Source: Acidimicrobiales bacterium
GTDB lineage: Bacteria; Actinomycetota; Acidimicrobiia; Acidimicrobiales; Acidimicrobilacustridaceae
Assembly (NCBI GenBank): GCA_041394145.1
Contig: JAWKIW010000002.1
Location: 379,252-443,251, forward strand
Length of the DNA: 64,000 nt
Direction of reading: 5' to 3'
The notes under the pieces are model-generated. The model had not been told where the DNA came from. It saw only the letters and a list, made by a program, of their open reading frames with translations, and ran no database searches. The position numbers and the translations under genes are program-made. Shown piece by piece: positions 12,253-35,443 of this stretch (positions are counted from its first letter, which is position 1; each line of letters opens with the position of its first letter).

Positions 12253-12558
12253 AAGGCCCCAGACCATGGAACCCGTCGGAACCGAGGACCGGGTCGCCGG
12301 AGGAGAAGCCCTCCTGGAAGCCGACGGCGGGCCGGCGAGTCGGAGAAGGATCGAACCCCCACACCGGTCGAGACGATGTCGTCGAACGTCATCGGCGCAC
12401 TGTCCCTTAACGCAGCCGCCAACGTCGCCCGCAGGGTGGGTGTGCTCACCTGCATTCCCGGCCCCACTTGAGCAGGTTTGTGCTCGTCTGATTTGGCCCC
12501 ACCCTGACGGTGTCGGGGTCCACCTGGGAGCGGCCGGCTGCTGTGAACCGTGGGGTTC

Positions 12559-14091
12559 ATGGCGAAGAGGTCGAAGGTGGAGTTGTACAGGCAGATCCGC
12601 AAGACCCGCGAGCGTGAGCAGCTCGGGATCCGGGCGTTGGCGCGCCGGTTCGGGGTTCATCGCCGCGCGATGTGCGCCAGGCGTTGGCGTCGGCGGTGCC
12701 GCCGCCGCGCAAGCCGTGCAGCGGGCGTCGCCGGTGCTGGATCGGTGGAAGCCGATCATCGATGGCTGGTTGGAGGCCGACCGGGCGGTGCCGAAGAAGC
12801 AGCGGCACACGGCCCGGCGGGTGTGGCAGCGGCTGGTCGCCGAGCACGGCGCCGAGATCGGCGAGTCGACCGGTGCGCCGCTTACGTGGCGGCGTGGAAG
12901 CCGGCAGCAAGGCGCTGGTGGAGGTGGCGGTGCCCCAGACCCATCCGCTGGGCGCGGAGGCCGAGGTGGACTTCGGGGCGGTCAGCTTCTATCTCGACGG
13001 GGTGCTGTGTGAGGGCCACATGTTCGTGATGCGCTTGTCGGCGTCGGCCAAGGGGTTCCATCAGGTGTATCCGAACGAGGCCCAGCAGGCGTTCCTCGAT
13101 GGCCATGTCCGGGCCTTCGCCCATTTCAGTGGGGTGCCGGGCCGGGTGCGCTATGACAACTTGAAGCCGGCGGTGGAGCGGGTGCTGCGGGGCCGGGACC
13201 GCGCCGAGTCCGAACGGTTCAGTGGCGCTCGCATTCGCCACTACAGGTTCCGACTCGATTGTTCTTCTGTCAGCCCGGCCCCGACGGCGCCCGCCCAGAA
13301 GGTGGCGTGGAAGGAGAGGTGGGCCGGTTCCGTCGCCGTCACCTGGTCCCGATGCCCAACGTCGCCTCGTTCGCCGAGCTCAACGACCTGATCGCGGCCG
13401 CCGACGCCGCCGATGACGCCCGCTGGGTGGCGGGTCGACGCCTCAGCGTCGGTGACCACTTCGCCCTGGAGGCCCCACGCTGGGGTGCCTGCCCGACGAG
13501 GCGTTCGACCCGGCGTTGATGCTGCGGCCCCGGGTGGACACGAAGTCCCGGGTGTGTGTGCGTCAGTGCTTCTACTCAGTGCCGGTGCGCTACGTCCGGG
13601 CGACGCATCGATGTGCGTCTGGGCGCCGACACGATCGAGGCGCTCGACGGGCCCCGGGTGGTGGCCACCCACCCCGGTTGTTGGCCAAAGGCACCGAGAG
13701 CTTGGTGCTGGACCACTACCTGGAGGTGCTACGGCTCAAGCCCGGGGCGCTGCCAGGCGCCACCGCGCTGGCTCGAGCCCGGGCGTCGGGCGCGTTCAGC
13801 GCCGACCACGAAGACGTATTGGTCCGCGGCCCGCCGACGCCTCAACGGCGCCGGCGCACCCAGGCCCTGATCGAGGTCCTGCTGGCCGCAGGCCCTGCCC
13901 GCCGACGCCGTGCGCGCCGGGATCCGAGCGGCGCTACGGATCCCGGTTCAGTCGACCCCGCCATCGTCGTCGTCGGTGCCCGACGAGCCCTCGAGGACCA
14001 CGACGCACGGTCGTGGCGATCGGTAATCGCCCGCTACGACCGCCCACCGCCGACGATCGCCCACTACGACCAGCTCCTGGAGGCCCGATGA
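12559..14091 (+). pseudogene. istA: IS21 transposase IstA (HTH + DDE), multiple frameshifts
   Basis: MAKRSKVELYRQIRKTREREQLGIRALARRFGVHRR is the N-terminal HTH. GHMFVMRLSASAKGFHQVYPNEAQQAFLDGHVRAFAHFSGVPGRVRYDNLKPAV is the catalytic core. C-terminal pieces (VCVRQCFYSVPVRY..., HYLEVLRLKPGALPGATAL) lie in other frames. Confidence 0.7.
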
Positions 14092-14862
14092 ACACCGACA
14101 CCGCCGCCGGTGCCACCGTCGACGCCGCAGCCCGCGAGCTGCGCCTACCGGCGGTGCGCGACCACACGCCACGACAGCCGCCGAAGCCAAACGGGCCCGC
14201 TCCACCCACCTGGGGTTCCTCGCCGACGTGCTCACCGTCGAGGTCGACGACCGAGCCGAACGACGACAGGCCCGGCGCATCCACGAGGCGCACTTCCCGC
14301 GCCTCAAACGCCTCGCCGACTTCCGACCTCGACGCCGCCCCCACCGTGGCCCCCACCGACCTCCCCGCCACCCTCGCCGCCGGCACCTTCCTCGACGTCG
14401 GCGAACCCGTCGTGTTGCTCGGCGACTCCGGCACCGGCAAGACCCACCTGCTCATCGGCACCGGCCTCGCCGCCTGCGAAGCCGGACGACGAGTCCACCG
14501 CCACCTGCGCACAACTCGTCAACGAACTCGTCGAAGCCGCCGACGAACGCCGCCTCGCCCGCCTCGTCGCCCGCTACGGCGCCGCCTCGACCTGCTGTGC
14601 GTCGACGAGCTCGGCTACGTCCAACTCGACAGCCGCGGCGCCGAGCTGTTGTTCCAAGTGCTCACCGAACGAGACGAACGAGCATCCGTGGCCGTCGCGT
14701 CCAACCTCCCCGTTCAGCGAATGGGGCCAGATCATCACCGACGCCCGCCTCGTCGCCGCCGTCATCGACCGGCTCACCTTCAACGCCCACATCATCGAAA
14801 CCGGCACCCGCTCTACCGTCTGCGCGCCAGCAGCCGCACCCGTCACCAACAAGACCGCCTGA
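14088..14862 (+). pseudogene. istB: IS21 helper ATPase IstB, frameshifted
   Basis: Starts MNTDTAAGATVDAAARELRLPAVRDH. Walker A VLLGDSGTGKTHLLIG. LDLLCVDELGYVQLD and DRLTFNAHIIETG lie in shifted frames. Confidence 0.65.
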
Positions 14863-15320
14863 ACGCCCCGAACATCCGCACCCGTCACCCACCCGACCCG
14901 ACCCGAGAGGCTCTACGGGCCACACAGCAGCCAGTTCCTCGGCTCGACGCCGACCGAAGGGGTGGGGCCAAATCAGACGAGCACGGTGGGGCCAATCCAG
15001 GTTGACATTCCCGGCAGAGCGCCGAAGGGGCCGATAGGCCCGGCTTCATAACCATCGGGGACACCGTCGAGGGTCGGAAATCGACACGGCGGCTCCGGCT
15101 GCCGATACTGCCTCTCGGTGGGGCGGCTCGTCGGCCCGGGAGGCTGTCATGGATGCCGGTACCGCCATGTCCCTGCGCTCGCGCTCAGTGAGCCTTTGCA
15201 CTGCTGATGATCCAGCGGAGGTAGCTGCCGCCGGGTTCCTGGCCCGCTACGGGACGGACCCTCAGTCGTATCATTCATGACCTGCGGGTCTTCCAGTGGG
15301 CGGCTGACGCTCGCATCGAC

Positions 15321-16124
15321 GTGCTCGCGGCCACTCGAGCCCACATCGGCTGTACCGCACCCACCTCGAAGCGCCGCGGCCTGGCCGGCACCACCATCGG
15401 CCGGCGTCTCTCGACAGTGTGTGGCTTCTACCGGTTCGCCCACATCGACGGCTACATCAATGCCAACCCCGCCCAGTACGTCCGCCGGGTACAGCGTCGA
15501 ACCCCGAGGGTCGAGGCTGGACCTGTCGAGCTGGCCCAGCTGCTGTTCGAAGCCGAACGCACCGACCACCACCACGCGGCCCTGGCCCTGTTGTTGGGAC
15601 TCAACGGGCTTCGCGTCAGCGAAGCCTGCGGCGCCGACCTCGCCGACCTCGGCGCTGACCACGGTCACCGCACCTGCGCATCATCGGCAAGGGCAACAAG
15701 CCCGCCGTTGTCCCGCTCGTACCTCGCACCGCCCGCACCATCGATCTGGCGCGAGGCGAACGCACCGACGGGCCGCTGCTCCTACGGAGCGACGGCGACC
15801 GCCTCGACCGTCGCACCGCCTACCGCTGGATCCGCTCCATGGCCCGCCGCGCCGGGCTCCGGCTCGGTCCATCCCCACATGCTGCGCCGCCGCGTTCATC
15901 ATGGCCGCCCTCGACAGCGGCGTCCCGCTAACGACGTTGCAGATCGCCGCCCGCCGCCGATCCACGCACCACCACCGTACGACCGGCGCCGCGCCAACTT
16001 CGACCATCACGCCGCCTACGTCGTCGCGGCCTTCGTCACGGCGGATAGCACCGCTCTCGACGGTGTCCCACTCGTTATGAGCCGGGCCTATCGGCCCATC
16101 CGAACTAGCAGTGTCAGAACGTAG
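15321..16124 (+). pseudogene. tyrosine recombinase remnant (frameshifted, N-terminally truncated)
   Basis: CGFYRFAHIDGYINANPAQYV...LLLGLNGLRVSEACGADLADL, then in another frame HRTLRIIGKGNKPAVVPLVPRTARTIDLARGERTDGPLLLRSDGDRLDRRTAYRWIRSMARRAG. Confidence 0.65.
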
Positions 16125-17640: not shown

Positions 17641-19296
17641 TCCCCGTGCTGGACGACCGGACGTGGACCCACTGCACGACTGAGGTCGGTGAGCCCGCGT
17701 CCGCGGTGTGGGTCAACCGTCGTCCTGTCCGACCGCCGGTGATCGCCGCTGCCATGGAGGCCGATCACCCGCCGGCCGTGTCGCCGCCGGTCGGGGTGCC
17801 GCCCCGTGCCCCGCCGGCGTTGCCGATGGCGGCCACCTCGTCGCTCCACGAGCGCTACGGCGAACGCCAGTCGCCGATGGCGTTCGTGGGCGACGCTCCG
17901 ATGGGCCTCGCCGCGAGGTCCGGACCACGGCGACCGTCGACGTGTCGGGTCGGTGGCCACTGACGGTGGCCGTGTACGGTGTCCACCGGTGGTGACGACG
18001 GGTGGCCGCCGACCTGGGTCGGCCCCGGCGACGCACCGTGGTTGCCCGGTCACGACGTACCCGTCGACTCCGCCGTCAGGAGCGGGCGGCCTCGGGCCTG
18101 CCGGTCCGCCTCACCGCGATCTCCGACAGCTTGCTGTCGATGTCGACCACGGCCGGGTCGACCTCGTCGGCCACCGACCTGCCAGTCGAATGCGTCGACG
18201 AACCCGGCCGAGGAGGTGGACGGGGTCGCGCAGGTGTCCGGGCTGGGACCGGAGCCAGGGGATGCCCAGCGCCGCACCGCACGGTCCGCCCTCGGCGGTG
18301 TGGTCGGCACCGTCGTTGACCCGGCAGCAGGCCGGGTGGTGGGCGCCGAGGTCGACGGTGGCGCGGTGGTCGAGGGTGGTGCCGATCGACTGGGCGATGT
18401 CGGTGGCGGGCAGGCTCGACGGACGATGCCCGGCTGCTCACGGCCAACAGGGTCGCCACCACCGCTGGTCGACCACGACCACCGCGGCGCGCGACCTACG
18501 GGCAACTGGCTGTGGCCGGTGTACGTCGGCGGCACCGGGGCCACGGGGGCATCGGGCACCCCAGCGACGTCCCAACCGCGTGACGGCCTGCCGTCGGGTC
18601 CCGGCGGCGGCGATCGGACAGCGGGCTCGTCGACGTACGGCTGGGCTCGCTGGAGTGCGGCTGCGACGGCCACCAGGTCAGCCGTGCGCCGACGCTCGGC
18701 GCGTGGCGGAGGCGATCGGTCGGCGCCGAACGGGGGCCAGGACAGGGGTGTCGGTGGGCATGGCGATCCTCACGGTCGAGCGCCGCGAACGGTGCCGTCA
18801 GTGGACGCCGATGACGAGTGGGATCACGCCTGGCAGACCAAGGCAGGGCAAGACCCGTATCCGAAAAGTACCGAGGCTGGCGTGCGAGCACCGCGCACCT
18901 TCGGGCCGGGCTGGTCCGTGACAGCTCTCGACCGGCGTCGTTGGACCATGCGCTCCGAGACGTGCCCTGTGCCTGGGACGGTGCGAACTGTCGCCAGCCG
19001 CCAGCTCGACGGCTATGAGGCTATCGCCGCGGTCGACGTGGTCGGCGACCAAGTGGCCGAGACGGTTACCGCACCGCCGGATCCGGCCCCAGAGCGGGCC
19101 AGACCACCGAAGGCGGCTCACACTGCTGAGCGCAATGGTGGTGAGCTCGAACCGGGAACCGGCGTGCCCTGTCGACACTGCCCAAATCACCGGATCAGCC
19201 CGCCGGTCCTCGGCGTCCCTGATCGCCAGATCCGTGGGGACGGGCGAAGCAAGGCGGTCTTCGGCGTGACGGCTCGTGGATCTTCGTCACTTGTGG

Positions 19297-19640: not shown

Positions 19641-20607
19641 GGCCGCGCTTCGCAGCCACATCCGGCAACCGAGTACCGGCACCACCCGCGACGACATCGC
19701 CGAAGCCTACCGATCAGGGTCTGCCGCGGCAGCCGTCGACGCTGCCAGGGCCCGAGGGCGTCCCAGACCATCCGGCATGACCCTACCCCGCGAAAGTGGG
19801 CAGATCGTCGGCAGGGCTCACCCGGATGGAGTGTCCGCGCTTGCTGCCTGGCGGCAGATCGGGCCCGGCTCTGGCGCCAGCTGGCGGTGCGTTCCGATCG
19901 CGCGCGCCACGCCAGGCACCGGATGCCAACATGTCCGCGGAACAAACCTGACCGTCCGGTCGGAGCACCAGAGCGGACCGTCGCGGCGGCTGGGGATGTC
20001 GGCCACCAGGATCGTCCTTCCGATCATCTGGTGGACCGCAAGCGTCATCGTGTGGACCAGTCGGATCAGTCGTGCACCGCAGAGATGGGTACACGCCCTC
20101 GGAGGCACGGAGCTTTCCTGACCACCCCACCGGACCCTTCCTCTACCGACGTGGCGTCCCGTCGACGAAGCTCGGCCCGGCATGGTTGATCGCCTTCGAC
20201 GAGTCAGACCTTCGTGATCATCCCACGCGGCCTGCTGACAACGGCCAGGCATTTCTACCGCAGCGAAGAACGGCTGGTCGTGCGAGTCGATCGCGCCCGA
20301 CCGTCGATCTGGCGGTCGCGGGCAAGTGGCCCAGATCACCAAGGGCCCACTCGGAAGACATCGACGCGCGGTTGGCGGCAACCGGCTGGACCGACGAACC
20401 GCTAGCGAGCACTCCCACCACCCCCATGCTTCACCTCGTCCCCTGGCCGCTCCCCATCCAGACCTGACCACGTCCACCGAGCCGACCCAGACCACTGGAC
20501 CCGATCAGCAGATCTGCCCGCACCACCGAGGTATCCAGATCGCCTAATACACGGATGATCCATCTGGCATCCCGTGTGATCTCACCGGCGGCGGGGAGCA
20601 TGCGGGG

Positions 20608-21651
20608 ATGAACCAGTTCCCGTGTTTGATCCGTTCGTCGTCGCCCGGTGGGGAGGCCCGCTTCGCCCTGGGTGATCCGCTCGTGGACGCCTACCTCGAG
20701 TTCGTCGCGGGCCGGGCCCGACCGAACACGTTGCGGGCGGTCGCCCATGACTTGAAGACGTTCTTCACGGTGATCGACAAGGCGCCCGCGGCGGTGGTCA
20801 CCGCCGATGTGTTCGACTTCCTCGCTGACCAACGTGGTGACCGCACCGTGATCCGTCTGTCTGATCGCGAGTCGGGGTTGTCGGCTCGCACGATCGCCCG
20901 GCGGTTGTCGTCGGTGTCGGGCTTGTACGCGTATCTGATCGCTCGGGGCGACACCGGCGTGGACACCAACCCGGTGCCGCGTGGCCTGTCGACCCGGCGG
21001 CGAGGCGGACGCACCCAGATCGTGCCCCTGGTGCGGGTGCCGCGCACCCTGCCCAAGATCTTGTCGCCCGCCGAGGTGAACGCACTGGTGGGTGCGCTGC
21101 GCACCCACCGGGACCGGGCGATGGTGTTCGCGATGGTGCTGGGAGGACTGCGCCGCTGCGAGGTCCTCGGTCTGCGCCTGGCCGACATCCGCGTGCCGGA
21201 CCGGTCGGTGTTCATCGCCGAAGGCAAGGGCGGCCACCAACGCATCGTGCCGATCAGCAACCCGTTCTTCGCGGCGGTCGGCCACTACCTGCGCTCGGAA
21301 CGACCCGCGGTGGACACCGACCGCGTCTTCGTCACCTTGAAGGGCCCCACCCGGGGGCACCCGATGACCCCCGACGGCATCGACAAGATCCTCCAGGCTG
21401 CCCGCCGACGCGGCGGGCTGGAACGGGCGACGTGTCACCAGCTGCGCCACACCTGCCTGACCCGCCTGCGCGAAGCCGGCATGGCCCTCGAAGCGGTCCA
21501 GGCCCAGGCCGGGCACGTCTCGATCGAGTCGACCCGGATCTACCTGCACCTCACCAACGACTGGCTCGCCAACGAATACCGGCGGGCCAGCGAACGCATC
21601 GACGCCGACCACACCGCCGAGCTCCTCGAGGCTCAGGAGATCAACCGATGA
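20608..21651 (+). CDS. tyrosine recombinase (XerC/D-like integrase), intact
   Basis: 347 aa. Catalytic-domain motifs present: LRRCEVLGLRLADI, HQLRHTCLTRLREAGMALEAVQAQAGHVSIESTRIYLH (the Y is the nucleophile). Confidence 0.85.
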   Translation: MNQFPCLIRSSSPGGEARFALGDPLVDAYLEFVAGRARPNTLRAVAHDLKTFFTVIDKAPAAVVTADVFDFLADQRGDRTVIRLSDRESGLSARTIARRLSSVSGLYAYLIARGDTGVDTNPVPRGLSTRRRGGRTQIVPLVRVPRTLPKILSPAEVNALVGALRTHRDRAMVFAMVLGGLRRCEVLGLRLADIRVPDRSVFIAEGKGGHQRIVPISNPFFAAVGHYLRSERPAVDTDRVFVTLKGPTRGHPMTPDGIDKILQAARRRGGLERATCHQLRHTCLTRLREAGMALEAVQAQAGHVSIESTRIYLHLTNDWLANEYRRASERIDADHTAELLEAQEINR

Positions 21652-22930
21652 CTGCCCTTGCTGCGGTCCCCGAACCTGCCACACCGAGCACCCAAGCCGA
21701 CCGCGACTGGGCCGAGCTGTCCGCCACTGCCCCCCAGCTGACCTCGACGATGCGCCGCTACCTGATCCAGCTCGGCACCTTCCTCGCGCCCCGCAGCGTC
21801 GACGTCGCCGACTCGACACTGCGCCCGTTCGCACGCTGGCTCACCACCACCACCGACGTCCGCGTCGTCGCTGGCATCGAACGCCACCACATCGAGGACT
21901 ACAAGGTGTGGCTCGCCGCCCGACCCGGCGCCCGCCCCGGCACCACCCTCGCCAAGAACACCCAACGCCAACGGCTGCGCACGATCCGGATCTTCCTCGA
22001 ACGCCTCATCGAATGGGACTGGCCCGACGCCCCCGGTCGGAACCCGATCCTGCACGGTGACATCCCACCGCGCCCCGAACCGCTCCCCAAGTTCCTCAAC
22101 GACCAAGACGCCGCCAAGTTCATGGCCGCCGCCCGCGCCCACCCCCTCCCGCGCTACCGCCTCGTCGCCGAAATGCTCGCCCGCACCGGCATGCGCGTCA
22201 GCGAGCTGTGCGACCTCACCGCCGATGCCGTCACCCGCATCGGTGACGCCCACTGGCTCCGCATCCCCGTCGGCAAGCTCCGCAACGACCGGTTCATCCC
22301 CCTGCACCCCGACCTCACCCTCGCCGACTGGACCGCCACCAACGCCAACCACATCCGCTCTACAACCGGCTCCTCGCCGACCACCACAAACCCTCGACCG
22401 GCGCACCGCCTACCGCATCGTCGCGGCCCGTCGGCCGCACCGCCGGCATCCACGTGCACCCCCACCAGCTCCGCCACACCCTCGCCACCCAAGCCATCAA
22501 CCGCGGCATGCGCCTCGAAGCCATCGCCGCGCTCCTCGGCCACCGCTCCCTGGAGATGACCCTCGTCTACGCCCGCATCGCCGACCGCGTCGTCGCCGAC
22601 GAATACGCCTCGGTCTGCCAACAGATCGACGCCCTCTACAACACCGCCGCCACCCCCAGCGCCCTGCCCGCCGACATCGAAACCGCCGCCATGACCCGAC
22701 TACGCGAACAAGCCCACGCCCGCATGCTCGGCAACGGACTCTGCACCCGCCCCGCCGAACTCGAATGCCGCATGGAAACCATCTGCGAGACCTGCGCCTA
22801 CTTCACCACCGGCCCCGAGTTCGTCCCCGTCCTCCTCCGCCAACGAGACCACGCCCGCCACCACCACCAACCCGACCGCGCCACCCTCTACGACCAGCTC
22901 CTCGACCAAGCCGCCAAGGACACCCCTTGA
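21648..22930 (+). CDS. second tyrosine recombinase, start overlaps upstream stop (ATGA); apparent frameshifts at ~22.35-22.44 kb
   Basis: ARTGMRVSELCDL, GKLRNDRFIPLHP, then RTAYRIVAA / GRTAGIHVHPHQLRHTLATQAINRGMRLEAIAALLGHRSLEMTLVYARI in other frames. Confidence 0.7.
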
Positions 22931-23086
22931 CACCGATACTGCGTATAACGCCGGCTCGGCTCCAACCTGCCGCCGGCGAGCAGTCCGGCCCCTGTTGGAC
23001 GCGACTCGGCCGTTGACCAGCGGTGTTGTGCCCGAGGGGCCATCATCCCTCAGGTGGGCACCCACTGAGTCGCGTACATTCTGCCT

Positions 23087-24073: not shown

Positions 24074-25007
24074 GGCGCAAAGGACCACGATGGGGCTCAC
24101 CAGCAGTGTGAGCAGCACCACGGCCGAGACAACCGTGCGACCAAGGCAGGCGTCCGATGCCTTACCCGAATACCTGCTGGCGGCGCGCGGCCACCGCCGA
24201 GGGCCACCCCGGAGGCGCCAGCGCCGACGCCGCCGCCTCGACATCCAACGGGCGGAACGCCGCTGCGACCGTCAGCTCGGCGCAACAGCCACCATCGGCC
24301 AACCGGACGCCCGGGCGAACACGACCGCCAGGCACGGGAACGAATCGTGCCGGTGACCGATAGTCGAACTGCTCGATCGGCTGAGCATCAAGTGCAGTCA
24401 CCACGTGTTCGTCGTGTCCGACGACGACCTGCAGCATCCCGTCTGGCTCGACCAGAAGCTCAGCCGGCTCGAAACGCCAGCCACACCGTTCACCGTCCCG
24501 CACAGACGCGGGGACGGCGAGTCGTCGGCCACCCCGGTGGACCGGCGACGACGCCGAGCCACCTTCGGGCGACACGCTCTCCGTGCAACCGGTCCAGGTC
24601 CCCGCTCGACATCGCCACAGCGGGAGAGCGACGAGGTGGTACCAGGGCAGACGATCTTCTTCGCCCCCGGCCGCTGACATGTCGCGACCATACGACCGAA
24701 CGCAGGTGCGGAAACGACGTGGCCCGGAGAGTCGAGTCGTGGGCCCGAATCTCGGGCCGCGCCGCGGCTGCGACGCCGCTGCACCTGGGCAGGCTCCGGC
24801 GGAAGCCAGAGGCTCACGATTGAAGAGCGCCCCAGAACACCCCACCGATGTATCCCCGATCATCAGCCCGCGATCATGCCGATCGCCGGCTCGGCGTGGC
24901 CTTGAGGGGTCTGGCCCCCCAAAAGGCACGAGGGATGAGGGTGAATGCCACCAGCTGCCGTCAGCCCAGGATCGCCCAGTCGTTCGCCTGCGATAGCGTG
25001 GAATCGA

Positions 25008-25170
25008 GATGTCGAGCGAGCTGATCCAGCCCAGCCATGACGACAGCTTGGAGCTGCCCGTCGAGCTGCTGCTGCGTCGCGCACGGCCGCTGCCACCCCA
25101 CGAGGAGATGGTGATCGACGATCTCACCAGCGAAGAGGGTGACGCCTTCCTCGCCGCGCTACGACAGTGA
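25008..25170 (+). CDS. vapB: antitoxin of VapBC-type TA pair (54 aa)
   Basis: MSSELIQPSHDDSLELPVELLLRRARPLPPHEEMVIDDLTSEEGDAFLAALRQ. Its stop overlaps the toxin start (GTGA). Confidence 0.6.
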
Positions 25171-25601
25171 CGCCGCCTACCGGCCGCAGCGCCGTCGTCA
25201 TCGACATCGATGTCTTCGGAGCGGATCTCGTACCCAGTTCTGCTCTGGCAGGGCGATACGAGCCGCTGATCGTCGGACGGCCGGCGTTCATCTCCTTCCA
25301 GACCGCCGCTGAGCTGCGCTATGGAGCCATGCTCCGCAGCTGGGGCGACGCACGCTTGCTGAAGCTCGAAGCGAGGATCGCCGCAGCCGAGGTCGTGCAC
25401 ACCGGCCCAGATCTGATCGAGGTCTACGCGCGACTCCGGGTGGCATGCCAGCGCGCAGGCCACGGCCTGTCCCAGCGCGAACACGACGCAGACCGCTGGA
25501 TCGCTGCAACCGCAATCCGGCTCGGTCTCCCCCTCGTGTCGAACGACACGATCTTCGAGGGCGTGCCGGGACTCGTCCTGGAGTCCGCCCACGACGAATA
25601 G
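25167..25601 (+). CDS. vapC: PIN-domain ribonuclease toxin VapC
   Basis: VIDIDVF...D, AAELRYG, EVYARLRV, D.WIAATAIRLGLPLVSNDTIFEGVPGL: conserved acidic PIN residues in canonical order. Confidence 0.8.
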   Translation: MTPPTGRSAVVIDIDVFGADLVPSSALAGRYEPLIVGRPAFISFQTAAELRYGAMLRSWGDARLLKLEARIAAAEVVHTGPDLIEVYARLRVACQRAGHGLSQREHDADRWIAATAIRLGLPLVSNDTIFEGVPGLVLESAHDE

Positions 25602-25832
25602 GGCGCCACCCCAACCGACGCCTATCCCAGATCAGCAGATCAGCGCGAACGCCGGCCGCGTCCCTGATCGCCGGCTCCGCCAATGCGCTTCCCATGGCGC
25701 ACTGCGGTCGCCCGCCGGTGAGTCACCCGGAGCGGGCGGCGAGCCGGACCGGTCGCCGGGATCCGCGGGCCGGTCCGTCGACCATGGGCGCGGGATAGGG
25801 TCACGTCGGTTCGGCGGACGAGAAGCCGGGAG

Positions 25833-27014
25833 GTGGGGGCGGTGGCGCTCGACGACACATACGCGCCGGTGGACAGCGTCGATCGGGAGGCGGCACGCAC
25901 CGCGGTGAGGGACCTGACGGTTGCGATGATCGACCACTTCGTGGACGGTTCTGCCAACGTTGCGTGCTCGGGGCTGGGGCTGTGGAACGTCGTTGCGGTG
26001 CTGGCGTCGGGAGCCGACGGTGCGACCGCCGACGAGTTGGCGTCGCTGATCGGGGTGAGCGCGGACCGCGCCGCCGCCGCGGTAACGGGCCTCGACACCG
26101 ACGTGGACGCCGTCGACGGGGTGGCCCACGCTCTGGGGATGTGGAGCCAGGTGCCCACCTACCGGGCCTGGCGCGAGGAGCTGCCGACGATCGGGGTCGC
26201 CCACCTCGGCGACGACACCGACCTGGCCGCCTGGGTCGCCGACCACACCGGCGGCGCCATCCCCGGCTTCGACCTCACGATCCCATCCGACGCCCTGCTG
26301 GTGCTCGCCGACCTGATCCGGGTGAAGGTCACCTGGGCCGACGCCTTCCCCAAGGACAGCACCCGCCACCGGGCCTTCCGGGCTCCCGGCGGCGACGCGG
26401 ACGTGTCGACCATGACCAAGACCGACGCCACCGACTGCCTGGCGGTGGTGGGACGCACGCTCACCTACGACGTGCCCACCACCGCCGGAGAGGGCCCGGC
26501 GACGGTGATGCGCTTCGCCATCGGTGCCGCCGATGCCTCACCCGCCGAGGTCATCGGCGACATCATCGCCCCGCACCAGCGACGGCGACCCCTGTCGGCG
26601 TGCACCTGGTCGGACCTGCCCGACGACGCCACCACCGACAGCGATCTCCCGCCGGGCTCCTTCGGCCGGTTCACGGTGTTCCTCCCCAAGTTCGCCACGA
26701 CGACCAGCCTCGACCTGCTCAGCCTCCTCGACGTCCTCGGTGCTCGCCGCTGCCAGACCGACCAGGCTGGGTTCACGCGCATGTCCCCCGAGCCACTCAT
26801 GGTCGAGCAAGCGCTGCAGGACAGTGAGGTGAAGCTCGACGAGGCCGGCGTCGAGGCCACGGTCGTCACCCGCTCGTCCATGGTCACCACCGGTAGGTAC
26901 AAGAGTCCGGACCTCGAGGTCTTCTTCGACCGACCCTTCGGCTACGCCCTGGTCACCGAAGATACCGGCCTGCCCCTCTTCGCTGGTTGGGTCGCCGACC
27001 CCACCGTCACCTGA
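25833..27014 (+). CDS. serpin (serine protease inhibitor family)
   Basis: Hinge/RCL EAGVEATVVTRSSMVTTGRY and FDRPFGYALV, plus N-terminal FVDGSANVACSGLGLWNVVAVLASGADGATADELASL: serpin shutter and breach motifs. Confidence 0.75.
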   Translation: MGAVALDDTYAPVDSVDREAARTAVRDLTVAMIDHFVDGSANVACSGLGLWNVVAVLASGADGATADELASLIGVSADRAAAAVTGLDTDVDAVDGVAHALGMWSQVPTYRAWREELPTIGVAHLGDDTDLAAWVADHTGGAIPGFDLTIPSDALLVLADLIRVKVTWADAFPKDSTRHRAFRAPGGDADVSTMTKTDATDCLAVVGRTLTYDVPTTAGEGPATVMRFAIGAADASPAEVIGDIIAPHQRRRPLSACTWSDLPDDATTDSDLPPGSFGRFTVFLPKFATTTSLDLLSLLDVLGARRCQTDQAGFTRMSPEPLMVEQALQDSEVKLDEAGVEATVVTRSSMVTTGRYKSPDLEVFFDRPFGYALVTEDTGLPLFAGWVADPTVT

Positions 27015-27164: not shown

Positions 27165-28493
27165 TCAACCGGATGAGGTGTCGTCGTGGTCGCTCGGCCC
27201 GTTGCCGTGAGGGAGCTCGTCAACGACGGCGGGTCGAAGGTTGTTCTCCTTGATGAAGCGCAGTCGCTGTTGCGCTCGTTGTCGCGCCATGACGCGGTCT
27301 TGGCCGTGTTCGACGGCGGCAACCCCTGCAGAGAAGGTGACCGGCCGTCCCGCTATCAGGCGTCGATGGTGGTGGTCGTCGAGAAGAGCGCGCAGCCGCC
27401 GGGTGAGCTCGTGCTCGTCGAGGTTGGGGACAGCCACGACGAACTCGTCGCCGCCCCAGCGGCCGACCTGACCTTCGGGGTCGACGTCGCCCAGCAGGCG
27501 CGCCACGGTGCACAGGGCCTGGTCGCCGGCGTCGTAGTTGTCCGCCGTGGCGTTGAAGCCGCGCAGGTCGTCGAGATCGACGAACGCCACCGCGAACGGG
27601 ACAGGCAAAGCGTTGAGCGCCCGTTCGGTCCCGACGCGGTTCAACACGCCGGTGAGCCCATCGTGGTCGGCGCGTTCCTCCGCGTCGGACAGTCGACGCC
27701 TGAGATCCCGGATCTCGGCCTGCGTGCCCCGCACCGAGACCCCGGCGGTGGCTTCGAGGTGCTCGAGGCGCTGCACCAGCGGCACGAGGCGCTCCCAACG
27801 GGCGTCACTTCGGGCGGCCCACAAAGCGTTGGCATGGGTCGGTGACGGCCCCGCCCGCGGCGTGACCTGCAGCTCGATCGCCACGCAACGGTCCCCGAGG
27901 TCGACGTCGCCACCGCAACCGGCACGGATGCGGCGAGCCAACTGGGTGACGCCGTCGGCGGGCAGCCGGTCGACGAGCACGGCCAGCTCGCTGGGGCCCA
28001 CCCGACCGACGGTGACCGCGTCGGCGACGGTGGCATGCAGGCGGCGGGCCAGCTCGTCGAGGACACGGTCACCCACCTCGCGGCCCACATCCCGGTTGAG
28101 GTGGCGCAACCCGACCAGGTTCACCAGCGCCACCCCGTACGACAGCCGGGTCCCGGCCGATCGGGCCCGCCCGTCGACCTCGGCCAGCCGCTGGAGGAAC
28201 ACGACCTCGGAATCCCACGGCTCATCGCCCCGCGCCACTCCGACAGTATTGCCCTCGCTCCAAGCCCGCACCGAGGCGACCGACGAAGTGTCAACGGCTG
28301 CTCCCCGAACGCCGGCTATGTGCGCGACAACTACGGCGAGCTCCACGTCTGGTTCGCACGGTGGTGCGTCGTAGCTGTCCGAGACGTGAACCTGGCCCGG
28401 GACTCGGTGGCCTCGTGGTCCGTAGCGTTCCCGACGGCGACCTCCCTGACATCGCCGACTGCTGGCCGACGTGGCCGACCAGGCGCAACGCAC
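27165..28493 (-). CDS. diguanylate cyclase: degenerate N-terminal GGDEF-like domain + coiled coil + canonical GGDEF domain
   Basis: C-terminal domain DGLTGVLNRVGTERAL...VAFVDLDDLRGFNATADNYDAGDQAL...GRWGGDEFVVAV. N-terminal region SYGVALVNLVGLRHLNRDVGREVGDRVLDELARRL lacks GGDEF. GTG start 12 bp after upstream stop. Confidence 0.75.
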   Translation of the reverse strand: MRCAWSATSASSRRCQGGRRRERYGPRGHRVPGQVHVSDSYDAPPCEPDVELAVVVAHIAGVRGAAVDTSSVASVRAWSEGNTVGVARGDEPWDSEVVFLQRLAEVDGRARSAGTRLSYGVALVNLVGLRHLNRDVGREVGDRVLDELARRLHATVADAVTVGRVGPSELAVLVDRLPADGVTQLARRIRAGCGGDVDLGDRCVAIELQVTPRAGPSPTHANALWAARSDARWERLVPLVQRLEHLEATAGVSVRGTQAEIRDLRRRLSDAEERADHDGLTGVLNRVGTERALNALPVPFAVAFVDLDDLRGFNATADNYDAGDQALCTVARLLGDVDPEGQVGRWGGDEFVVAVPNLDEHELTRRLRALLDDHHHRRLIAGRPVTFSAGVAAVEHGQDRVMARQRAQQRLRFIKENNLRPAVVDELPHGNGPSDHDDTSSG

Positions 28494-29408: not shown

Positions 29409-30490
29409 TCACGATCCATGGTCATGTCGACGAGTTGTGGGAGGTATTCTCGGCCTGCTCTCGCCGGAGCGAGCCGCGGTTCGCCAAGTGCCGTGGTGCG
29501 CTACTCGTTGACATGCTCATGTCGAGGACGGCTTTCAAGCGCAGCCGATCGCCAGGTAGGTCCGGCTTGCGGGTCTATCCCAGATCGCCGGCCTGGTTGA
29601 TGCGCTCGACGAAGCAGTGCCGGCGAGTGGGCTCATCGGCGAGACTGGCTCATGGCATTCGGACAAACAGGGCGGGTCCACCCGCGACTTCCCGACAGAC
29701 AAAGGAGTTGCTCGATCTCTACGTACGCGGGACACAGCGATTTCCGAGACGCTCGTTGGCCCGATGGGGTTCACGCAATGCCAGGCCGCCGGTAGGTTCA
29801 CCCGAGACGAGGCCGACGCGCCCATCACACACCAACTTCGCGACGCGGCCGATGCCGCGGAGGAGGGTGTGGGCGAATCCGACGCACACGCGCCTGATCG
29901 GCTTCGCTCTGCGGCGGAGCAAGACCGAGTTGGCCTCACCAAGGTTCCGGACGGGGTTGCCTGCGGCGGAACTGCAACGGCGTGGGTGGATCGTCGTCGA
30001 ACCTGGAGTGAGCAGCAGCGTCCCATAACACCTACAGCGCTCAGAAACAACGTACCCGCTGCCCCTGAACGCCGGCTCCGCCGCGACGTTGCTGTCTGGC
30101 GCCGGGACGGCGCGGCCGTAGATCGGGCGGCTCGTCCGGCGGCCGTTGACGGTGGTGGGCTACGAGGACATACGGGCCGTGGGCCGTCGGCGAGCGATGC
30201 ACGCCGCTTCTTCCACGTCGGCCATAACGGGTGACCGTCCTGAACGCCTCCCGGCAGACGTCTCGGATGGCCTGACGCGGAGAGCCGGGACTCGTCGGGT
30301 CGCGCGACGGTTCGGGCGTCCAGCAAGGGGTTTGAGGGTGAGCCCTGTTCCGCCCGTCCCGGTCTGACTGATTCCACGACCGAGATGTGGAGACCGTCGC
30401 TGAGTTCGGGGTGGGTCTGAATAGGTAGAGCCGTGTCGTCCGTGGCTGCGTCGTGTGCCCGGGCGTCCGAACCCGTCAGGAGAACCCCTC

Positions 30491-31615: not shown

Positions 31616-34154
31616 GTGGAGGTTCGTGTCGTGTTGAACATCGGGAAGCTGGCGGCGGGCAAGGCCGGCTACTACGTGTCGCTGGCTGCTGGGGTCGAGG
31701 ACTACTACACTGACACGGCGAACCTCCGCCGAGCCCGACGGCGCCGAGCTGCTCGGCTTGGCCATTGCCGGCACCGTGACGGCCGACGATCTGGTCACGG
31801 TGCTGGGTGGGCGGGCGCCGGGGACTGGCGAGCGGCTGACGGGCTCGGGTGGCGGGGTTCGATCTGGACGTTCCGGGCGCCGAAGTCGGTGTCGTTGCTG
31901 TACGGGTTGGGCGAGGCCGACACGGTCGCCGGCGTGGTGGTCGATCGCGCGACGAGGCGGCTGTGGACGCCGCGGTCGGCTACCTCGAGCGGGCCGCCTG
32001 GTGCGACCCGCCGCCGGGTCGACGGGACGATCACCCGGTTCGCGGGGAGGGGTCTGCTGCGGCCGGGTTCGGCACCAGACGTCGCGGCGGGGACCCGACC
32101 CTGCACACCCACGTGCTGGTGGCGAACATGACCTGCACACCCGGCGGCCGGTGGGGGCGCTGGACGGGCGACGGGTCTACGAGCACGCCTTGATCGCCGG
32201 CTACTTCTACCAGGCCCAGCTGCGGGCCGAGCTGATCCGCCGCCTCGGCGTCGAGTGGGACTGCGGTCAACGGCTGTGCCGACGTCGCCGGTGTCGACGA
32301 CGGGGTGATCGCCGCGCCTTCCGGCGGCGCGCCGAGATCCTCGAACGTCTGACCAGCGCGGCCAGCGGTCGGCCCGGCGCAGGCGGCCACGCTCGACACC
32401 CGCCGCGCCAAGGACTACCGCCACGGCCGGGTCGACGCCACCGAGCTGCGGAGCCGCGGGCCGAACGCGGCGACCGGGTCGGGTTCGGACCGGCACAGGT
32501 GGCCGGGTTGTCGACGCCGGCGTCCGACGAACCCTCCTCCCTGGCCCAGGTCGGCGACATCTTCCGCGATCTGGCCGGCCCCGACGGGCTCACCAAGCAC
32601 AAGAGCACCTTCACCCGCCCCGACGTGCTGCGAGCGTTCGCGTCGGCGCTGCCCGACGGCGCCGACGTCGCCGCCATCGAAGACCTCGCCAGCTTCTACC
32701 TGTTCGCCACCGAACCGGTCGCAGTCGGTGACGTGCACGGCGCCGAGGCGTGGACGACCCAGGACCTCCTCGACACCGAACGACGGGTGCTCGCCGGCAT
32801 CGCCGCCCGCCGACACGCCGGCACCGGCATCGCCGACCGGGCCGAGGTGGCCGCCGCCATCGGTGCCCGGCCCACCATCGGTGACGAGCAGGCCGACATG
32901 GTCGCCGACCTGTGCCTGGCCGGACACGGCGTCGACGTCGTGGTGGGTGCCGCCGGCACCGGCAAGACCTTCGCCCTCGACACCGCCCGCGTCGCTTGGG
33001 AGCGCTCCGGGTACCGGGTCCACGGCGCCGCCCTGTCGGCGCGGGCCGCCGCCGAGCTGCAGGCCGGCTCGGGCATCGAGTCGACCACGATCGCCCGGCT
33101 GCTCGGCCAGATCGACGCCGGCCGGACCCGACTCGATACCCGGGCGGTCGTGGTCGTCGACGAAGCCGGCATGGTCGGCACCCGGACCCTGGACCGGCTC
33201 CACCAGGCGACCTCGGCCGCCGGCGCCAAGCTGGTGCTCGTCGGTGACCCCGCCCAGCTCCCCGAGATCGACGCCGGCGGCGCCTTCGCGGCGCTCACCG
33301 AACGCCTCGACCCGATCCGCCTCGTCGACAACCGCCGCCAGGTCCACCACTGGGAACGCGGCGCCCTCGACGACCTGCGCTCCGGCCGGATCGCCGCCGC
33401 CGTGGCCACCTACCAGCAACGGCAGCGCATCGTGGTCGTCGCCGACCCCGACGAGCTGCACACCCGCGTCGTCCAAGACTGGTTCGCCTCCCACCAGGCA
33501 GGGGACCAGGCGCTCATGGTCGCCGCGCACCGCGCCGAGGTCCGAGACCTCAACCAACGAGCACGCCAGCTGCTCGACGACGCCGGCCTCCTCGGCCCGA
33601 CCCGCCTACGGGTCGGCGGCCACGAGTTCGCCGAAGGCGACCGGGTCATGGCCGTCGGCCGCAACCACTACGACCTCGACATCCTCAACGGCGACCTCGG
33701 CACCATCACCGGCATCGGACCCAACGGCGACATCACCTTCCACGCCGACCGAACGGCCGAGCCACGCACGATGCCCGCCGCCCGCATCGAAGCAGGCTTC
33801 CTCGACCACGGCTACGCCCGCACCAACCACAAGACCCAAGGCGCTACGGTCGACCGCACCTTCATCCTCGGCGACGACGGCGACCTCGACCGCCAAGCCG
33901 CCTACGCCGCCCTGTCCCGGGGTCGCATCGAGAACCGCCTCTACGTGCCGGACCCCGACGACGACCTCCTCCTGGACACACCAGCTGCCTCCCCGATCCA
34001 CGAGCACGTCACCTACGAGCTGTCCCGCGACCGATCCCAACGCCTCGCCACCGACCACCTCGACGCCCAGGCCGGCCGCGCCGACGACCTGGACGCCCAC
34101 CTGCCCCACGCCCACCCCGATCCCGAACCCACCGTCGACAACGACCTCTGGTGA
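31616..34154 (+). CDS. MobF-family conjugative relaxase (TrwC/TraA N-terminal relaxase + RecD-like helicase); relaxase domain split over 3 frames
   Basis: MEVRVVLNIGKLAAGKAGYYVSLAAGVEDYY (YY/DYY motif), WTFRAPKSVSLLYG, DPTLHTHVLVANMT (HxH motif), WRALDGRRVYEHALIAGYFYQAQLRAEL, helicase motifs GAAGTGKTF, VVVDEAGMV, LVGDPAQLP. Confidence 0.85.
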
Positions 34155-35058: not shown

Positions 35059-35096
35059 TCCTGTCCCGCGGGCGCTCGGGTAGCGTGCGTGCGTGG

Positions 35097-35313
35097 CGCG
35101 GCGTCGAGACCGCTTGACCCTGAGCAGCTGGAGCCTCCGGCGGGCGCTGGATCGATCGTGGGCCGAGGCCCAGCGGGGCTCGCCGACCCGGAGCTCCGGG
35201 CCTACCTCGAGGACTCGATGCGCCGGCTCGATGCCAGGGGGCCGGCCCCGCTGGTCACCCGCGAGGAGCTCCTGGCGCAGACCGAGGTCCTCGACGGGTA
35301 GTGCCCCTCCGAG
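35097..35313. repeat. ~215-bp direct repeat, chromosomal copy just outside attR
   Basis: Same sequence with two compensating 1-bp indels. The antitoxin-like ORF ends with TAG here. Confidence 0.6.
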
Positions 35314-35443
35314 ACGTCGAGGAGCTCGGCCACATCATCAGGGACGGCGGTCCCGAGGACGTCGAACGCCTCCACCGAGCCGAGCGGCGGCCCCGCTGGA
35401 CCCGACCATCCTGCGTGTCACACGCCCTCGTCATGATGGGAGC

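What the first reader, a model, noticed from the sequence alone, without database searches (positions are those of the whole stretch)
20608..22930. Overlapping tandem tyrosine recombinase pair deep inside the element, besides int and a third remnant
Two phage-integrase-family genes overlap by 4 bp (ATGA). This arrangement is reminiscent of recombinase-in-trio (RIT) elements and the paired integrases common in actinobacterial plasmids and islands. A third degraded recombinase lies 4.5 kb upstream.

The pair could mark a nested or fused second element, or act as a resolvase or accessory recombination module.
Basis: partly seen in the sequence, partly recalled or inferred. Interest (0 to 1): 0.5.

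Follow-up and report, generated by a model that had tools for sequence, protein, structure and literature searches.

The report
Decayed Tn554-like two-recombinase transposon
The overlapping recombinase pair is one 2.4-kb copy, with its second gene broken, of a small jumping element related to the staphylococcal transposon Tn554; the element is abundant in Acidimicrobiales genomes and inserts at a specific symmetric DNA site.

Summary
The pair is real. Gene 1 (20608-21651, 347 aa) is an intact tyrosine recombinase. Gene 2 starts at 21648 in the ATGA overlap, but five indels (22319-22449) break it, so its catalytic H-R-H-Y residues lie out of frame.

DNA similarity to copies in unrelated contexts starts at 20541 and stops at 22954. 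This defines a 2,414-bp unit holding only these two genes, with imperfect terminal inverted repeats.

Gene 1 is the reciprocal best match of Tn558/Tn554 TnpA and gene 2 of TnpB, including TnpB's C-terminal 4-Cys motif. Both are 53-61% identical to the Rhodococcus pREL1 pair, already described as an actinobacterial Tn554-like transposon. Similarity to RitA/B/C and XerC/D is weaker.

Related copies are multi-copy in Acidimicrobiales MAGs, 99.75-100% identical within a genome. They sit in a dyad-symmetric target, TGYCCCNKAW-CRCCGG-NTCNGGG.

It is not a RIT element, a Xer/dif pair or a resolvase of the surrounding island. It is a nested, now non-autonomous, cargo-less and TnpC-less Tn554-related transposon with a short TnpB: a variant of a known kind, of moderate interest. 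The upstream remnant (15.2-16.1 kb) is a separate frameshifted recombinase pseudogene. The 16.2-20.5 kb stretch holds no recombinase trace.

The parts
20530..20540 (+). Left target half-site (flank, not part of the element): GGTATCCAGAT, a weak match to the family target arm (G)TGYCCCNKAW
   Evidence: Consensus from 51 distinct left flanks. Near-identical copies have different flanks, so this is target sequence, not element.
20541..20561 (+). Left end of the element: core CGCC (20541-20544) followed by the left inverted repeat TAATACACGGATGATCC
   Evidence: DNA similarity to copies in unrelated contexts begins here. The end motif occurs once in the window, with 0.01 expected.
20608..21651 (+). 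tnpA-like tyrosine recombinase gene (347 aa), intact, with catalytic R182 K207 H277 R280 H303 Y312
   Evidence: Pfam PF00589 and PF02899. 100% identical to an NCBI Acidimicrobiales MAG protein. Best non-family match is Tn558 TnpA at 108 bits, E 3e-30 over the full length. Catalytic residues mapped on E. coli XerD.
21648..22359 (+). tnpB-like recombinase pseudogene, N-terminal part in the frame of the ATG (core-binding domain, catalytic R in GMRVSE, K in GKLRNDR)
   Evidence: tblastn of the intact L007 homologue: residues 1-239, 89% identity. Motif coordinates.
22319..22449 (+). Cluster of indels that breaks tnpB: -6 nt after 22319, -1 after 22359, -1 after 22386, +1 at 22426, -3 after 22449. 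Reading frame goes 0 to 2 to 1 to 2.
   Evidence: Nucleotide alignment with L007 and L003. Positions computed. GC3 frame switch seen.
22361..22930 (+). tnpB-like pseudogene, C-terminal part out of frame with the start: HPHQLRH (22457-22477), LGHRS, LVYARI (catalytic Y), and the 4-Cys motif NGLCTRPAELECRMETICETC (22733-22795)
   Evidence: tblastn residues 241-430, 87% identity. Alignment with pREL1 long recombinase and Tn558 TnpB. Coordinates.
22927..22954 (+). Right end of the element: TTGACACCGATACTGCGTATAA (conserved TTGACA box and right inverted repeat) followed by the 6-bp CGCCGG
   Evidence: Similarity to other copies stops at 22954. The motif is unique in the window, with 0 expected. The inverted-repeat relation to the left end and co-variation across lineages are shown.
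22955..22964 (+). Right target half-site (flank): CTCGGCTCCA, a weak match to NTCNGGG
   Evidence: Consensus of 38 distinct right flanks.

Best explanation
Window 20541-22954 is one copy of a 2.4-kb, IS-like, site-specific transposon of the Tn554-related kind. It carries only two overlapping tyrosine-recombinase genes, a TnpA-like short one and a TnpB-like longer one with a C-terminal 4-Cys domain. It has no TnpC and no cargo. It lies nested inside a larger integrated element that has its own integrase at 2.4-4.3 kb and a relaxase/helicase at 31.8-34.2 kb.

**Inferred mechanism, by analogy with Tn554 and tyrosine recombinases in general.**
- The two recombinases together synapse the imperfect terminal inverted repeats.
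- They join the ends into a circular intermediate.
- They integrate that circle into a dyad-symmetric target: arms TGYCCCNKAW and NTCNGGG around a 6-bp spacer CRCCGG, which shares the trinucleotide CRC with the element.

In every copy the left junction carries the element-type spacer (CRCYTA) and the right junction the target-type spacer (CRCCGG). This fits exchange of one pair of strands followed by replication. That resembles what is proposed for strand-biased integrative elements, and what I recall for CTX-phage/XerC, better than a symmetric two-strand exchange.

This copy has intact ends and an intact tnpA, but its tnpB is frameshifted. It can no longer move on its own and could only be mobilised by an intact copy elsewhere in the genome.

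**Shown:** gene content, boundaries, family relationship, multi-copy dispersal, target consensus, broken tnpB.
**Inferred:** circular intermediate, division of labour between the two proteins, one-strand exchange.
For: **Boundaries.** blastn to copies in three unrelated contexts starts at 20535-20541 and ends at 22954-22957. Two copies in one MAG are 100% identical over exactly 2,427 bp from CACT... to ...CACCGG.

**Gene order.** A 344-348-aa gene plus a 4-bp-overlapping 428-432-aa gene recurs in JGI, NCBI and Logan contigs.

**Family.**
- Rec1 is 61% identical to the pREL1 short recombinase. The intact Rec2 homologue is 53% identical to residues 186-605 of the pREL1 long one.
- Reciprocal best hits outside the family: Rec1 to Tn558 TnpA (108 bits) and Rec2 to Tn558 TnpB (100 bits). 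XerC scores 80/66 bits and the best Rit protein 67/56 bits.
- The motif NGxC-x7/8-C-x5-C-x2-C is shared with TnpB.
- The R-K-H-R-H-Y residues are present in both protein families.

**Mobility.**
- 66 genome loci, nearly all in Acidimicrobiales MAGs, with 2 to at least 5 distinct sites per genome.
- Within-genome copies are 99.75-100% identical with sharp ends.
- 51 distinct left flanks and 38 distinct right flanks were found.

**Target.** Position-specific conservation is C at -5 in 51/51, A at -2 in 49/51, and G at +7 in 35/38. The right arm is the reverse complement of the left.

**Core.** The CAC lineage has CAC at both junctions and the CGC lineages have CGC at both.

**Unoccupied paralogues.** Two paralogous sites in the window carry a single CGCCGG/CGCCAG.

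**Broken tnpB.**

**Context.** int; TrwC/AAA_30 relaxase-helicase.

**Literature.** Tn554-related tandem recombinases in Actinobacteria (PMC3414803). Key features of Tn554: one ordinary and one large recombinase, target specificity, no mobilisation genes (PMC10214605).
Against: - No orthologous empty site was recovered. Two metagenome scans gave nothing relevant. Mobility therefore rests on multi-copy, multi-context evidence and on paralogous unoccupied sites.
- TnpC, required for Tn554 transposition, is absent, as is the roughly 180-200-aa N-terminal part of TnpB. Direct transfer of the Tn554 mechanism is uncertain.
- The 6-bp donor footprint reported for Tn554 and SEs is not visible. The position before the core is variable at the left junction (A 22, T 22, C 7 of 51) but always A at the right junction.
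- Only 3-4 nt are shared between the two junctions, unusually few for a tyrosine-recombinase overlap region. The cleavage positions are therefore not established.
- The frameshifts could in principle come from assembling a multi-copy repeat in a MAG.
Confidence: 0.85

Rival explanations
1. The copy is intact and active. The five indels in tnpB are assembly or consensus errors from collapsing several near-identical copies in a metagenome-assembled genome.
For: - The element is multi-copy in related genomes.
- Many MAG copies from long-read projects also show frameshifts.
- Both ends and tnpA are perfect.
Against: - Long housekeeping ORFs elsewhere in the window are uninterrupted, so the general indel rate is low.
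- The changes include 6-nt and 3-nt in-frame deletions and are not in homopolymer runs.
- The copy is 9% diverged from its nearest relative, which fits an old insertion.
Confidence: 0.12
2. The two recombinases, or relatives encoded elsewhere, also act on an array of unoccupied att-like sites in the surrounding island. They would move or shuffle the gene segments between these sites, as in integron cassettes or the dif modules of Acinetobacter plasmids. On this reading the pair would be part of a cassette system, not only a selfish transposon.
For: - Five exact matches to YCCNKAWCGCCRG, all on the + strand and all within 19.2-30.1 kb, against 0.38 expected.
- Three or four of them share a 50-100-nt upstream segment.
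- An antitoxin-like ORF plus a PIN-toxin-like ORF (25009-25601; no Pfam or other family match obtained, assigned from the translation) lies between two such sites.
- A 245-nt block is 99% identical to the sister MAG and ends exactly at the core.
- Near elements in other genomes there are 17 same-strand and 4 opposite-strand sites, against about 3.4 expected in 518 kb.
Against: - In L024 the sites simply flank an ordinary GntR-ABC transporter operon, as an intergenic repeat would.
- No case of the same segment between two sites in different contexts was found.
- The enrichment near elements may only reflect a genome-wide intergenic repeat that the transposon prefers as target.
Confidence: 0.08
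3. The pair is a host or island recombination module: a XerC/XerD-like dimer-resolution pair, or a resolvase/accessory recombinase of the large integrated element.
For: The best NCBIfam names are XerC/XerD. Source annotations call homologues 'XerD'.
Against: - Scores are far below the XerC/XerD cut-offs: 139/125 bits against 335/330.
- The 2.4-kb unit occurs in many unrelated contexts with sharp ends and several copies per genome.
- It is closer to Tn558 TnpA/TnpB than to E. coli XerC/XerD.
Confidence: 0.03
4. It is the remnant of a recombinase-in-trio (RIT) element that lost its third gene, perhaps into the 17.6-20.6 kb 'desert'.
For: The genes are adjacent and co-oriented with a 4-bp overlap, as in RIT trios (the trio in L082 has the same 4-bp overlaps).
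Against: - The family-wide unit has only two genes, and its ends exclude a third.
- Rit scores are 32-67 bits, against 100-108 bits for TnpA/TnpB.
- A tyrosine-recombinase profile and tblastn with RitA/B/C find nothing in 16.2-20.5 kb.
- No Pfam domain is found in ORFs there.
Confidence: 0.02

Closest known systems
Actinobacterial Tn554-like tandem tyrosine-recombinase elements (Van Houdt et al. 2012, Famint36 + Famint41; e.g. Rhodococcus erythropolis pREL1 264836-267693)
   Same: - A short recombinase gene followed by a longer one with a 4-bp overlap.
- No TnpC.
- 61% and 53% protein identity.
- The same C-terminal 4-Cys motif.
- Actinobacterial hosts.

   Different: - The long recombinase there is 611-828 aa with a roughly 180-aa or longer N-terminal extension. 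Here it is 428-432 aa and starts directly at the core-binding domain.
- The hosts here are Acidimicrobiales.
- Ends and target were not defined in that paper, as far as I read it.
Tn554 / Tn558 family of Staphylococcus and Enterococcus (tnpA-tnpB-tnpC plus resistance genes)
   Same: - Gene order is short TnpA-type recombinase then TnpB-type recombinase, with reciprocal best similarity (E 3e-30 and 1e-25).
- Full RHRY-type catalytic sets in both proteins.
- The TnpB 4-Cys motif.
- Imperfect terminal inverted repeats, target-site specificity and no transfer genes.

   Different: - No TnpC (DUF6262).
- No cargo.
- TnpB lacks about 200 N-terminal residues.
- Many degenerate target sites instead of one att554.
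- No donor-derived 6-bp footprint is visible.

Recombinase-in-trio (RIT) elements
   Same: Compact elements made only of overlapping tyrosine-recombinase genes between inverted repeats.
   Different: Three genes there against two here. Weaker sequence similarity than to TnpA/TnpB.
Strand-biased circularising integrative elements (SEs) and GInts of Gammaproteobacteria
   Same: - One ordinary plus one large tyrosine recombinase.
- Target specificity.
- Junction asymmetry that suggests exchange of one strand pair.

   Different: - SEs and GInts need four proteins (IntA, Tfp, IntB, Srap) and carry cargo.
- Sequence similarity to them was not tested here.
XerC/XerD-dif and elements that exploit it (e.g. 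CTX phage)
   Same: - Xer-like 'simple' tyrosine recombinases acting as a pair on a site with two inverted arms around a 6-bp spacer.
- Limited spacer homology compatible with one-strand exchange (own knowledge of the CTX/XerC mechanism).
   Different: - Not orthologues of XerC/XerD.
- The recombinases are encoded by the element itself.
- The element is multi-copy and not linked to a terminus site.

Membership tests
Tn554-related transposons | Two adjacent co-oriented tyrosine-recombinase genes, ordinary-size first, larger second | tested here: met
   347 aa then 430 aa (intact homologues), with a 4-bp overlap.
Tn554-related transposons | Sequence relationship: first gene to TnpA, second gene to TnpB | tested here: met
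   Reciprocal best BLASTP against Tn558 TnpA/TnpB compared with Xer, Rit and the window int. Shared TnpB 4-Cys motif.
Tn554-related transposons | Catalytic R-H-R-Y (with K and H) in both recombinases | tested here: met
   Met for the family. In this window copy, the tnpB H-R-H-Y residues are out of frame.
Tn554-related transposons | Third protein TnpC (DUF6262) required for transposition | tested here: not met
   The element ends 24 nt after the tnpB stop. The downstream ORF has no DUF6262 hit.
Tn554-related transposons | Large TnpB (about 610-640 aa) with an N-terminal extension | tested here: not met
   Rec2 aligns to residues 186-605 of pREL1 long and 221-590 of Tn558 TnpB. No upstream coding room exists.
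Tn554-related transposons | Target-site specificity without classical target duplication | tested here: met
   Dyad-symmetric consensus from 51 and 38 flanks. Only CRC(C) is shared by both junctions.
Tn554-related transposons | 6-bp footprint copied from the donor's left flank to the new right junction | tested here: inconclusive
   No insertion-specific hexamer was seen. The right junction is constant (AACRCCGG) while position -1 at the left junction varies. No donor-recipient pairs are known.
Tn554-related transposons | Demonstrated transposition or a circular intermediate | not testable with these tools
   Only indirect evidence: 99.75-100% identical copies at different loci.
Recombinase-in-trio (RIT) | Three consecutive recombinase genes ritA-ritB-ritC within the inverted repeats | tested here: not met
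   Two genes only. Boundaries. No third relic.
Recombinase-in-trio (RIT) | Closest sequence relatives are RitA/B/C | tested here: not met
   Bits to the Rhizobium trio are 32-67, against 100-108 to TnpA/TnpB.
XerC/XerD chromosome-dimer resolution pair | Scores above the NCBIfam equivalog cut-offs for XerC/XerD | tested here: not met
   139 and 125 bits against cut-offs 335 and 330.
XerC/XerD chromosome-dimer resolution pair | Single-copy host genes, not bounded by repeats, acting on dif | tested here: not met
   Multi-copy, with sharp mobile boundaries. Association with dif itself was not tested.

The most novel reading that the evidence does not exclude
This family may be a minimal, autonomous two-protein tyrosine transposon that integrates by a single strand exchange into dyad-symmetric sites. 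The same-strand arrays of unoccupied sites around it (six in 11 kb of this window) may delimit gene segments, such as a toxin-antitoxin pair, that its recombinases can move. That would be an integron-like or dif-module-like cassette system in Actinobacteria.
Probability: 0.08. Interest if true: 0.75.

Novelty: new variant of a known kind. Interest (0 to 1): 0.38.

Why it matters
**A tractable model for Tn554-type transposition.** How Tn554-type elements move is still unresolved: two tyrosine recombinases, no classical target duplication, and a possible strand bias (stated in PMC10214605). This Acidimicrobiales family is a stripped-down version with these properties:
- two genes in 2.4 kb
- no TnpC
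- no TnpB N-terminal domain
- no cargo
- hundreds of natural insertions, which already define its ends and a 26-bp symmetric target

It could therefore serve as a simple model for dissecting that mechanism. It is also a compact candidate for site-directed DNA insertion in high-GC bacteria.

**Annotation and assembly.** These genes are routinely mislabelled 'XerD/XerC'. The element breaks metagenome assemblies: many hits lie on 2.3-2.9-kb contigs.

**This window.** The result is ordinary. It is a dead copy of a selfish element nested in an integrated element.

Tried and rejected
1. **Empty-site search.** A gapped pattern built from the flanks of the L003 insertion found nothing in the metagenome collection. 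A 20-mer from the unoccupied paralogous site B returned 67 unrelated high-GC hits, none with the B-type upstream sequence or an element end.
2. **Hairpin test.** I tested whether the target is a hairpin, meaning site-specific complementarity of the two arms. Observed pairing was 6.0 pairs, against 5.77 +/- 0.23 in permuted pairings, with 362 of 2000 permutations reaching it. The symmetry comes from two consensus half-sites, not a co-varying stem.
3. **AlphaFold2 of an intact TnpB-like protein (P0121, 16-sequence alignment).** Mean pLDDT was 64 and the C-terminal 300-391 region was below 50. This is too poor for a fold search, so none was run.
4. **Window protein lookup.** The window's own protein is not in the gene-position index.
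5. **Megablast of 17.5-23.5 kb against plasmids.** This gave only a 238-nt hit, which nevertheless led to the pREL1 pair.
6. **RIT remnant, Xer pair and island resolvase.** All rejected (see rival explanations).
7. **Junction promoter.** I considered a promoter formed from the conserved TTGACA at the right end. The spacing to TATAAC (11 nt), or to TAATAC across a circle junction (20 nt), does not fit a sigma-70-type promoter. This comes from reading the sequence, not from a tool test.
8. **RNA genes.** No tRNA or Rfam family occurs anywhere in the window.
Full report
**1. What is in the sequence**

The window has about 71% G+C, so long ORFs occur in every frame. I used third-position G+C to pick the coding frame.

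From 20608 to 21651 the + strand carries a clean 347-aa ORF. It has a Phage_integrase catalytic domain (E 1e-32) and an N-terminal SAM-like domain. Its stop overlaps an ATG at 21648 (ATGA), which opens a second integrase-family frame.

The coding frame shifts near 22300-22450:
- The frame opened at 21648 runs into a stop at 22559.
- The recombinase motifs HPHQLRH, LGHRS and LVYARI, and the rest of the protein up to the stop at 22930, are in another frame.

Aligned with an intact 430-aa homologue, the window has a 6-nt deletion, two 1-nt deletions, a 1-nt insertion and a 3-nt deletion between 22319 and 22449.

**2. The pair is a self-contained 2.4-kb unit**

Gene 1 has thousands of close relatives, 78-93% identical, in metagenomes and MAGs. 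It is 100% identical to a protein of an NCBI Acidimicrobiales MAG.

Wherever enough context is available, a 344-348-aa gene is followed, with a 4-bp overlap, by a gene of about 430 aa, and the neighbours differ.

Nucleotide similarity between the window and these loci starts at 20535-20541 and ends at 22954-22957. In genomes with several copies:
- The copies are 99.75-100% identical over 2,427-2,432 bp.
- The identity stops at the same ends. L041 and L054 are 100% identical from CACTTAATAC... to ...TATAACACCGG.

The window copy is 20541-22954 (2,414 bp). It has a 67-nt leader, the two genes, and 24 nt after the second stop. There is no room for a third gene or for cargo.

**3. Ends and target**

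The ends are as follows:
- Left: C(G/A)C(C/T) followed by TAATACAC(G/A)(T/G)(G/A)TGATCC.
- Right: CTTGACA-N-(C/G)GAT-N2-(C/T)(A/G/C)(C/T)GTATAA followed by C(G/A)CCGG.

The inner 15 nt form an imperfect inverted repeat. The variable central bases change together at both ends in different lineages: CACGTGTG with TACGTGTG, CACATGTG with TACATGTA, CACGGGTG with TACGGGTG.

Near-identical copies have different flanks, so the flanks are target sequence. Fifty-one distinct left flanks and 38 distinct right flanks give this consensus:
- Left: (G)TGYCCCNKAW, with C at -5 in 51/51 and A at -2 in 49/51.
- Right, after CRCCGG: NTCNGGG, with G at +7 in 35/38.

The right arm is the reverse complement of the left. 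The target therefore looks like a classical tyrosine-recombinase core site: two inverted arms around a 6-bp spacer.

The symmetry is a property of the consensus, not of individual hairpins.

The trinucleotide at the start of the spacer is the same at both junctions and changes with lineage (CAC...CAC or CGC...CGC). This is what a homology-dependent crossover core predicts.

The window holds two unoccupied paralogues of the insertion site with a single CGCCGG/CGCCAG. True orthologous empty sites were not found.

**4. Which family**

A 238-nt megablast hit led to plasmid pREL1 of Rhodococcus erythropolis. There a 341-aa and a 611-aa recombinase gene overlap by 4 bp.
- Gene 1 is 61% identical to the short one.
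- The intact gene-2 homologue is 53% identical to residues 186-605 of the long one.

Van Houdt et al. 2012 list this pREL1 pair among 'Tn554-like' actinobacterial elements: a short plus an abnormally long recombinase, no TnpC.

I fetched three reference sets:
- a bona fide Tn554-family transposon, Tn558 with tnpA-tnpB-tnpC-fexA on an Enterococcus plasmid
- a RitA/B/C trio from a Rhizobium plasmid
- E. coli xerC and xerD

BLASTP bit scores:

| Query | pREL1 partner | Tn558 partner | XerC | XerD | Best Rit |
|---|---|---|---|---|---|
| Gene 1 | short, 380 | TnpA, 108 | 80 | 74 | RitA, 67 |
| Gene 2 | long, 424 | TnpB, 100 | 66 | 61 | RitC, 56 |

Further points:
- The TnpA and TnpB matches cover nearly the whole proteins.
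- The TnpB match includes a C-terminal motif, NGxC-x7/8-C-x5-C-x2-C.
- All six catalytic residues align in gene 1 and in intact gene-2 homologues.
- NCBIfam XerC/XerD scores are far below the cut-offs.
- By sequence, the only solved relatives are Xer-type catalytic domains.

At the level of 50% clusters, the TnpB-like family has 350 representatives at E <= 1e-30. It has both short (411-439 aa) and long (569-899 aa) forms.

**5. How it most likely works**

*Shown:* a two-gene unit with inverted-repeat ends, dispersed in many copies, in a sequence-defined symmetric target.

*Inferred from the Tn554 literature* (both recombinases required; target-specific; no transfer genes; PMC3414803, PMC10214605) *and from general tyrosine-recombinase mechanism:*
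- The two proteins synapse the ends and form a circle.
- They recombine the circle with the target.

In all 33 distinct end pairs, the left junction has the element-type spacer (CRCYTA) and the right junction the target-type spacer (CRCCGG). Identity between them is limited to CRC(C).

A symmetric two-strand exchange across a 6-bp overlap should give both arrangements. Exchange of one strand pair next to the CRC homology, followed by replication, gives only the observed one. I therefore favour a strand-biased mechanism, as proposed for SEs and, from my own knowledge, for XerC-mediated CTX integration. This is an inference.

The Tn554-type donor footprint is not visible.

The element ends and the target arms are two different kinds of half-site. 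Each junction has one of each, which may be why two recombinases are needed. This is speculation.

**6. This copy and its surroundings**

The copy has consensus ends and an intact tnpA, but a broken tnpB. It is 9% diverged from its closest known relative. About half of the distinct genome copies are intact and the rest are decayed in various ways.

It is nested in a region with these features:
- its own integrase (2444-4327)
- an IstB-like fragment (13413-15005)
- a frameshifted recombinase relic (15225-16121)
- an antitoxin-like ORF and a PIN-toxin-like ORF (25009-25601; identified from the translation only, no family-library hit)
- a serpin gene and a GGDEF gene
- a TrwC/AAA_30 relaxase-helicase (31758-34151)

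Ordinary metabolic genes lie before 2.7 kb and after about 37.5 kb.

The 16.2-20.5 kb stretch has no stable coding frame and no Pfam domain in any ORF tested. It gives no hit with a tyrosine-recombinase profile or with Rit/Tnp/Xer queries. It is not the remnant of a third recombinase of this unit.

**7. A lead not resolved**

The target-like motif YCCNKAWCGCCRG occurs five times in the window, all on the + strand between 19.2 and 30.1 kb, against 0.38 expected.
- Several of these sites share an upstream segment.
- One conserved 245-nt block ends exactly at the core when compared with the sister MAG.
- Around elements in other genomes there are 17 same-strand and 4 opposite-strand sites, against about 3.4 expected.

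This may only mean that the transposon prefers an intergenic repeat. In L024 the sites flank an ordinary operon. A cassette-like role is not excluded.

**8. Verdict**

The object is a decayed copy of a Tn554-related two-recombinase transposon in a compact form: short TnpB, no TnpC, no cargo. I did not find this form described in the papers searched. It is a new variant of a known kind, and of moderate interest mainly as a simple model for an unresolved transposition mechanism.

Noticed in passing
window 19217-19229, 25662-25674, 28303-28315, 29579-29591, 30063-30075 (plus the occupied site at 20532-20544 and a weaker one at 24881-24889): There is a same-strand array of unoccupied sites matching the transposon's target (YCCNKAWCGCCRG): 5 exact matches against 0.38 expected, all within 11 kb of the island. 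Sites at 19.2, 20.5, 24.9 and 25.7 kb also share a 50-100-nt upstream segment.
   Followed up: partly
window 25009-25601 and 25436-25680; L007 6103-6347: A 53-aa antitoxin-like ORF overlaps a 144-aa PIN-toxin-like ORF (assigned from the translation; Pfam found nothing for the 53-aa ORF and the 144-aa ORF was not scanned), and the pair lies between two att-like sites. The last 245 nt (toxin 3' end plus 79 nt) are 99.2% identical to a truncated relic in the sister MAG. The identity ends exactly at the core ...GATCGCCG.
   Followed up: partly
window 15225-16121: A frameshifted tyrosine-recombinase pseudogene. It keeps the N-terminal domain and R-box GLRVSE in one frame, the middle part in another, and an HPHMLRR box. 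It is only about 30% identical to the TnpA-like protein, so it is not a copy of the same element.
   Followed up: yes
window 12445-15005; L007 9-790 and 3717-4749: An IstB-like ATPase fragment sits inside a 530-aa ORF (13413-15005). An adjacent unknown gene is 67-71% identical at DNA level to genes near the element copy of the sister MAG, in inverted order. This is shared mobile-element debris.
   Followed up: no
window 2444-4327, 31758-34151, 35093-37174: An integrase lies next to an acyl-CoA dehydrogenase gene, with a TrwC/AAA_30 relaxase-helicase and a DUF222 protein further on. Together they suggest an integrated mobilisable or conjugative element of about 30-35 kb. No tRNA gene or clear att repeat was found.
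   Followed up: partly
window 25833-27011: A serpin (serine protease inhibitor) gene lies inside the island, with Pfam E 5e-32.
   Followed up: no
L025 8468-8500: A target left arm plus CGCCGG is followed directly by TTATACAGGTGATCC, which resembles an inverted element end. It may be a solo end or a relic of a related element.
   Followed up: no
L029, L056, L054, L026, L024:885 right flanks: In several Acidimicrobiales MAGs, the right flank of the insertion or of unoccupied sites continues with a shared motif, GGGGCGGTTATCGA, followed by a second TGCCCCCGA-like box. The preferred target there seems to be part of a longer intergenic repeat.
   Followed up: no
L001, L003, L005: L005 combines the left flank of L001 with the right flank of L003, and L001 and L003 share 13 nt of right flank. 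This is either recombination between copies or chimeric metagenome assembly across the repeat. The L001 copy also has an internal deletion of about 200 nt in tnpB.
   Followed up: no
protein hit lists: Many homologues sit on contigs of 2.3-2.9 kb, the size of the element itself, and are annotated 'XerD/XerC'. The element evidently breaks metagenome assemblies and is systematically misnamed.
   Followed up: no
window 22927-22932 and the same position in all lineages: A perfectly conserved TTGACA (CTTGACA) lies 22 nt from the right end. From memory, its reverse complement TGTCAAG resembles the XerD-arm end of actinobacterial dif. I did not verify this.
   Followed up: no
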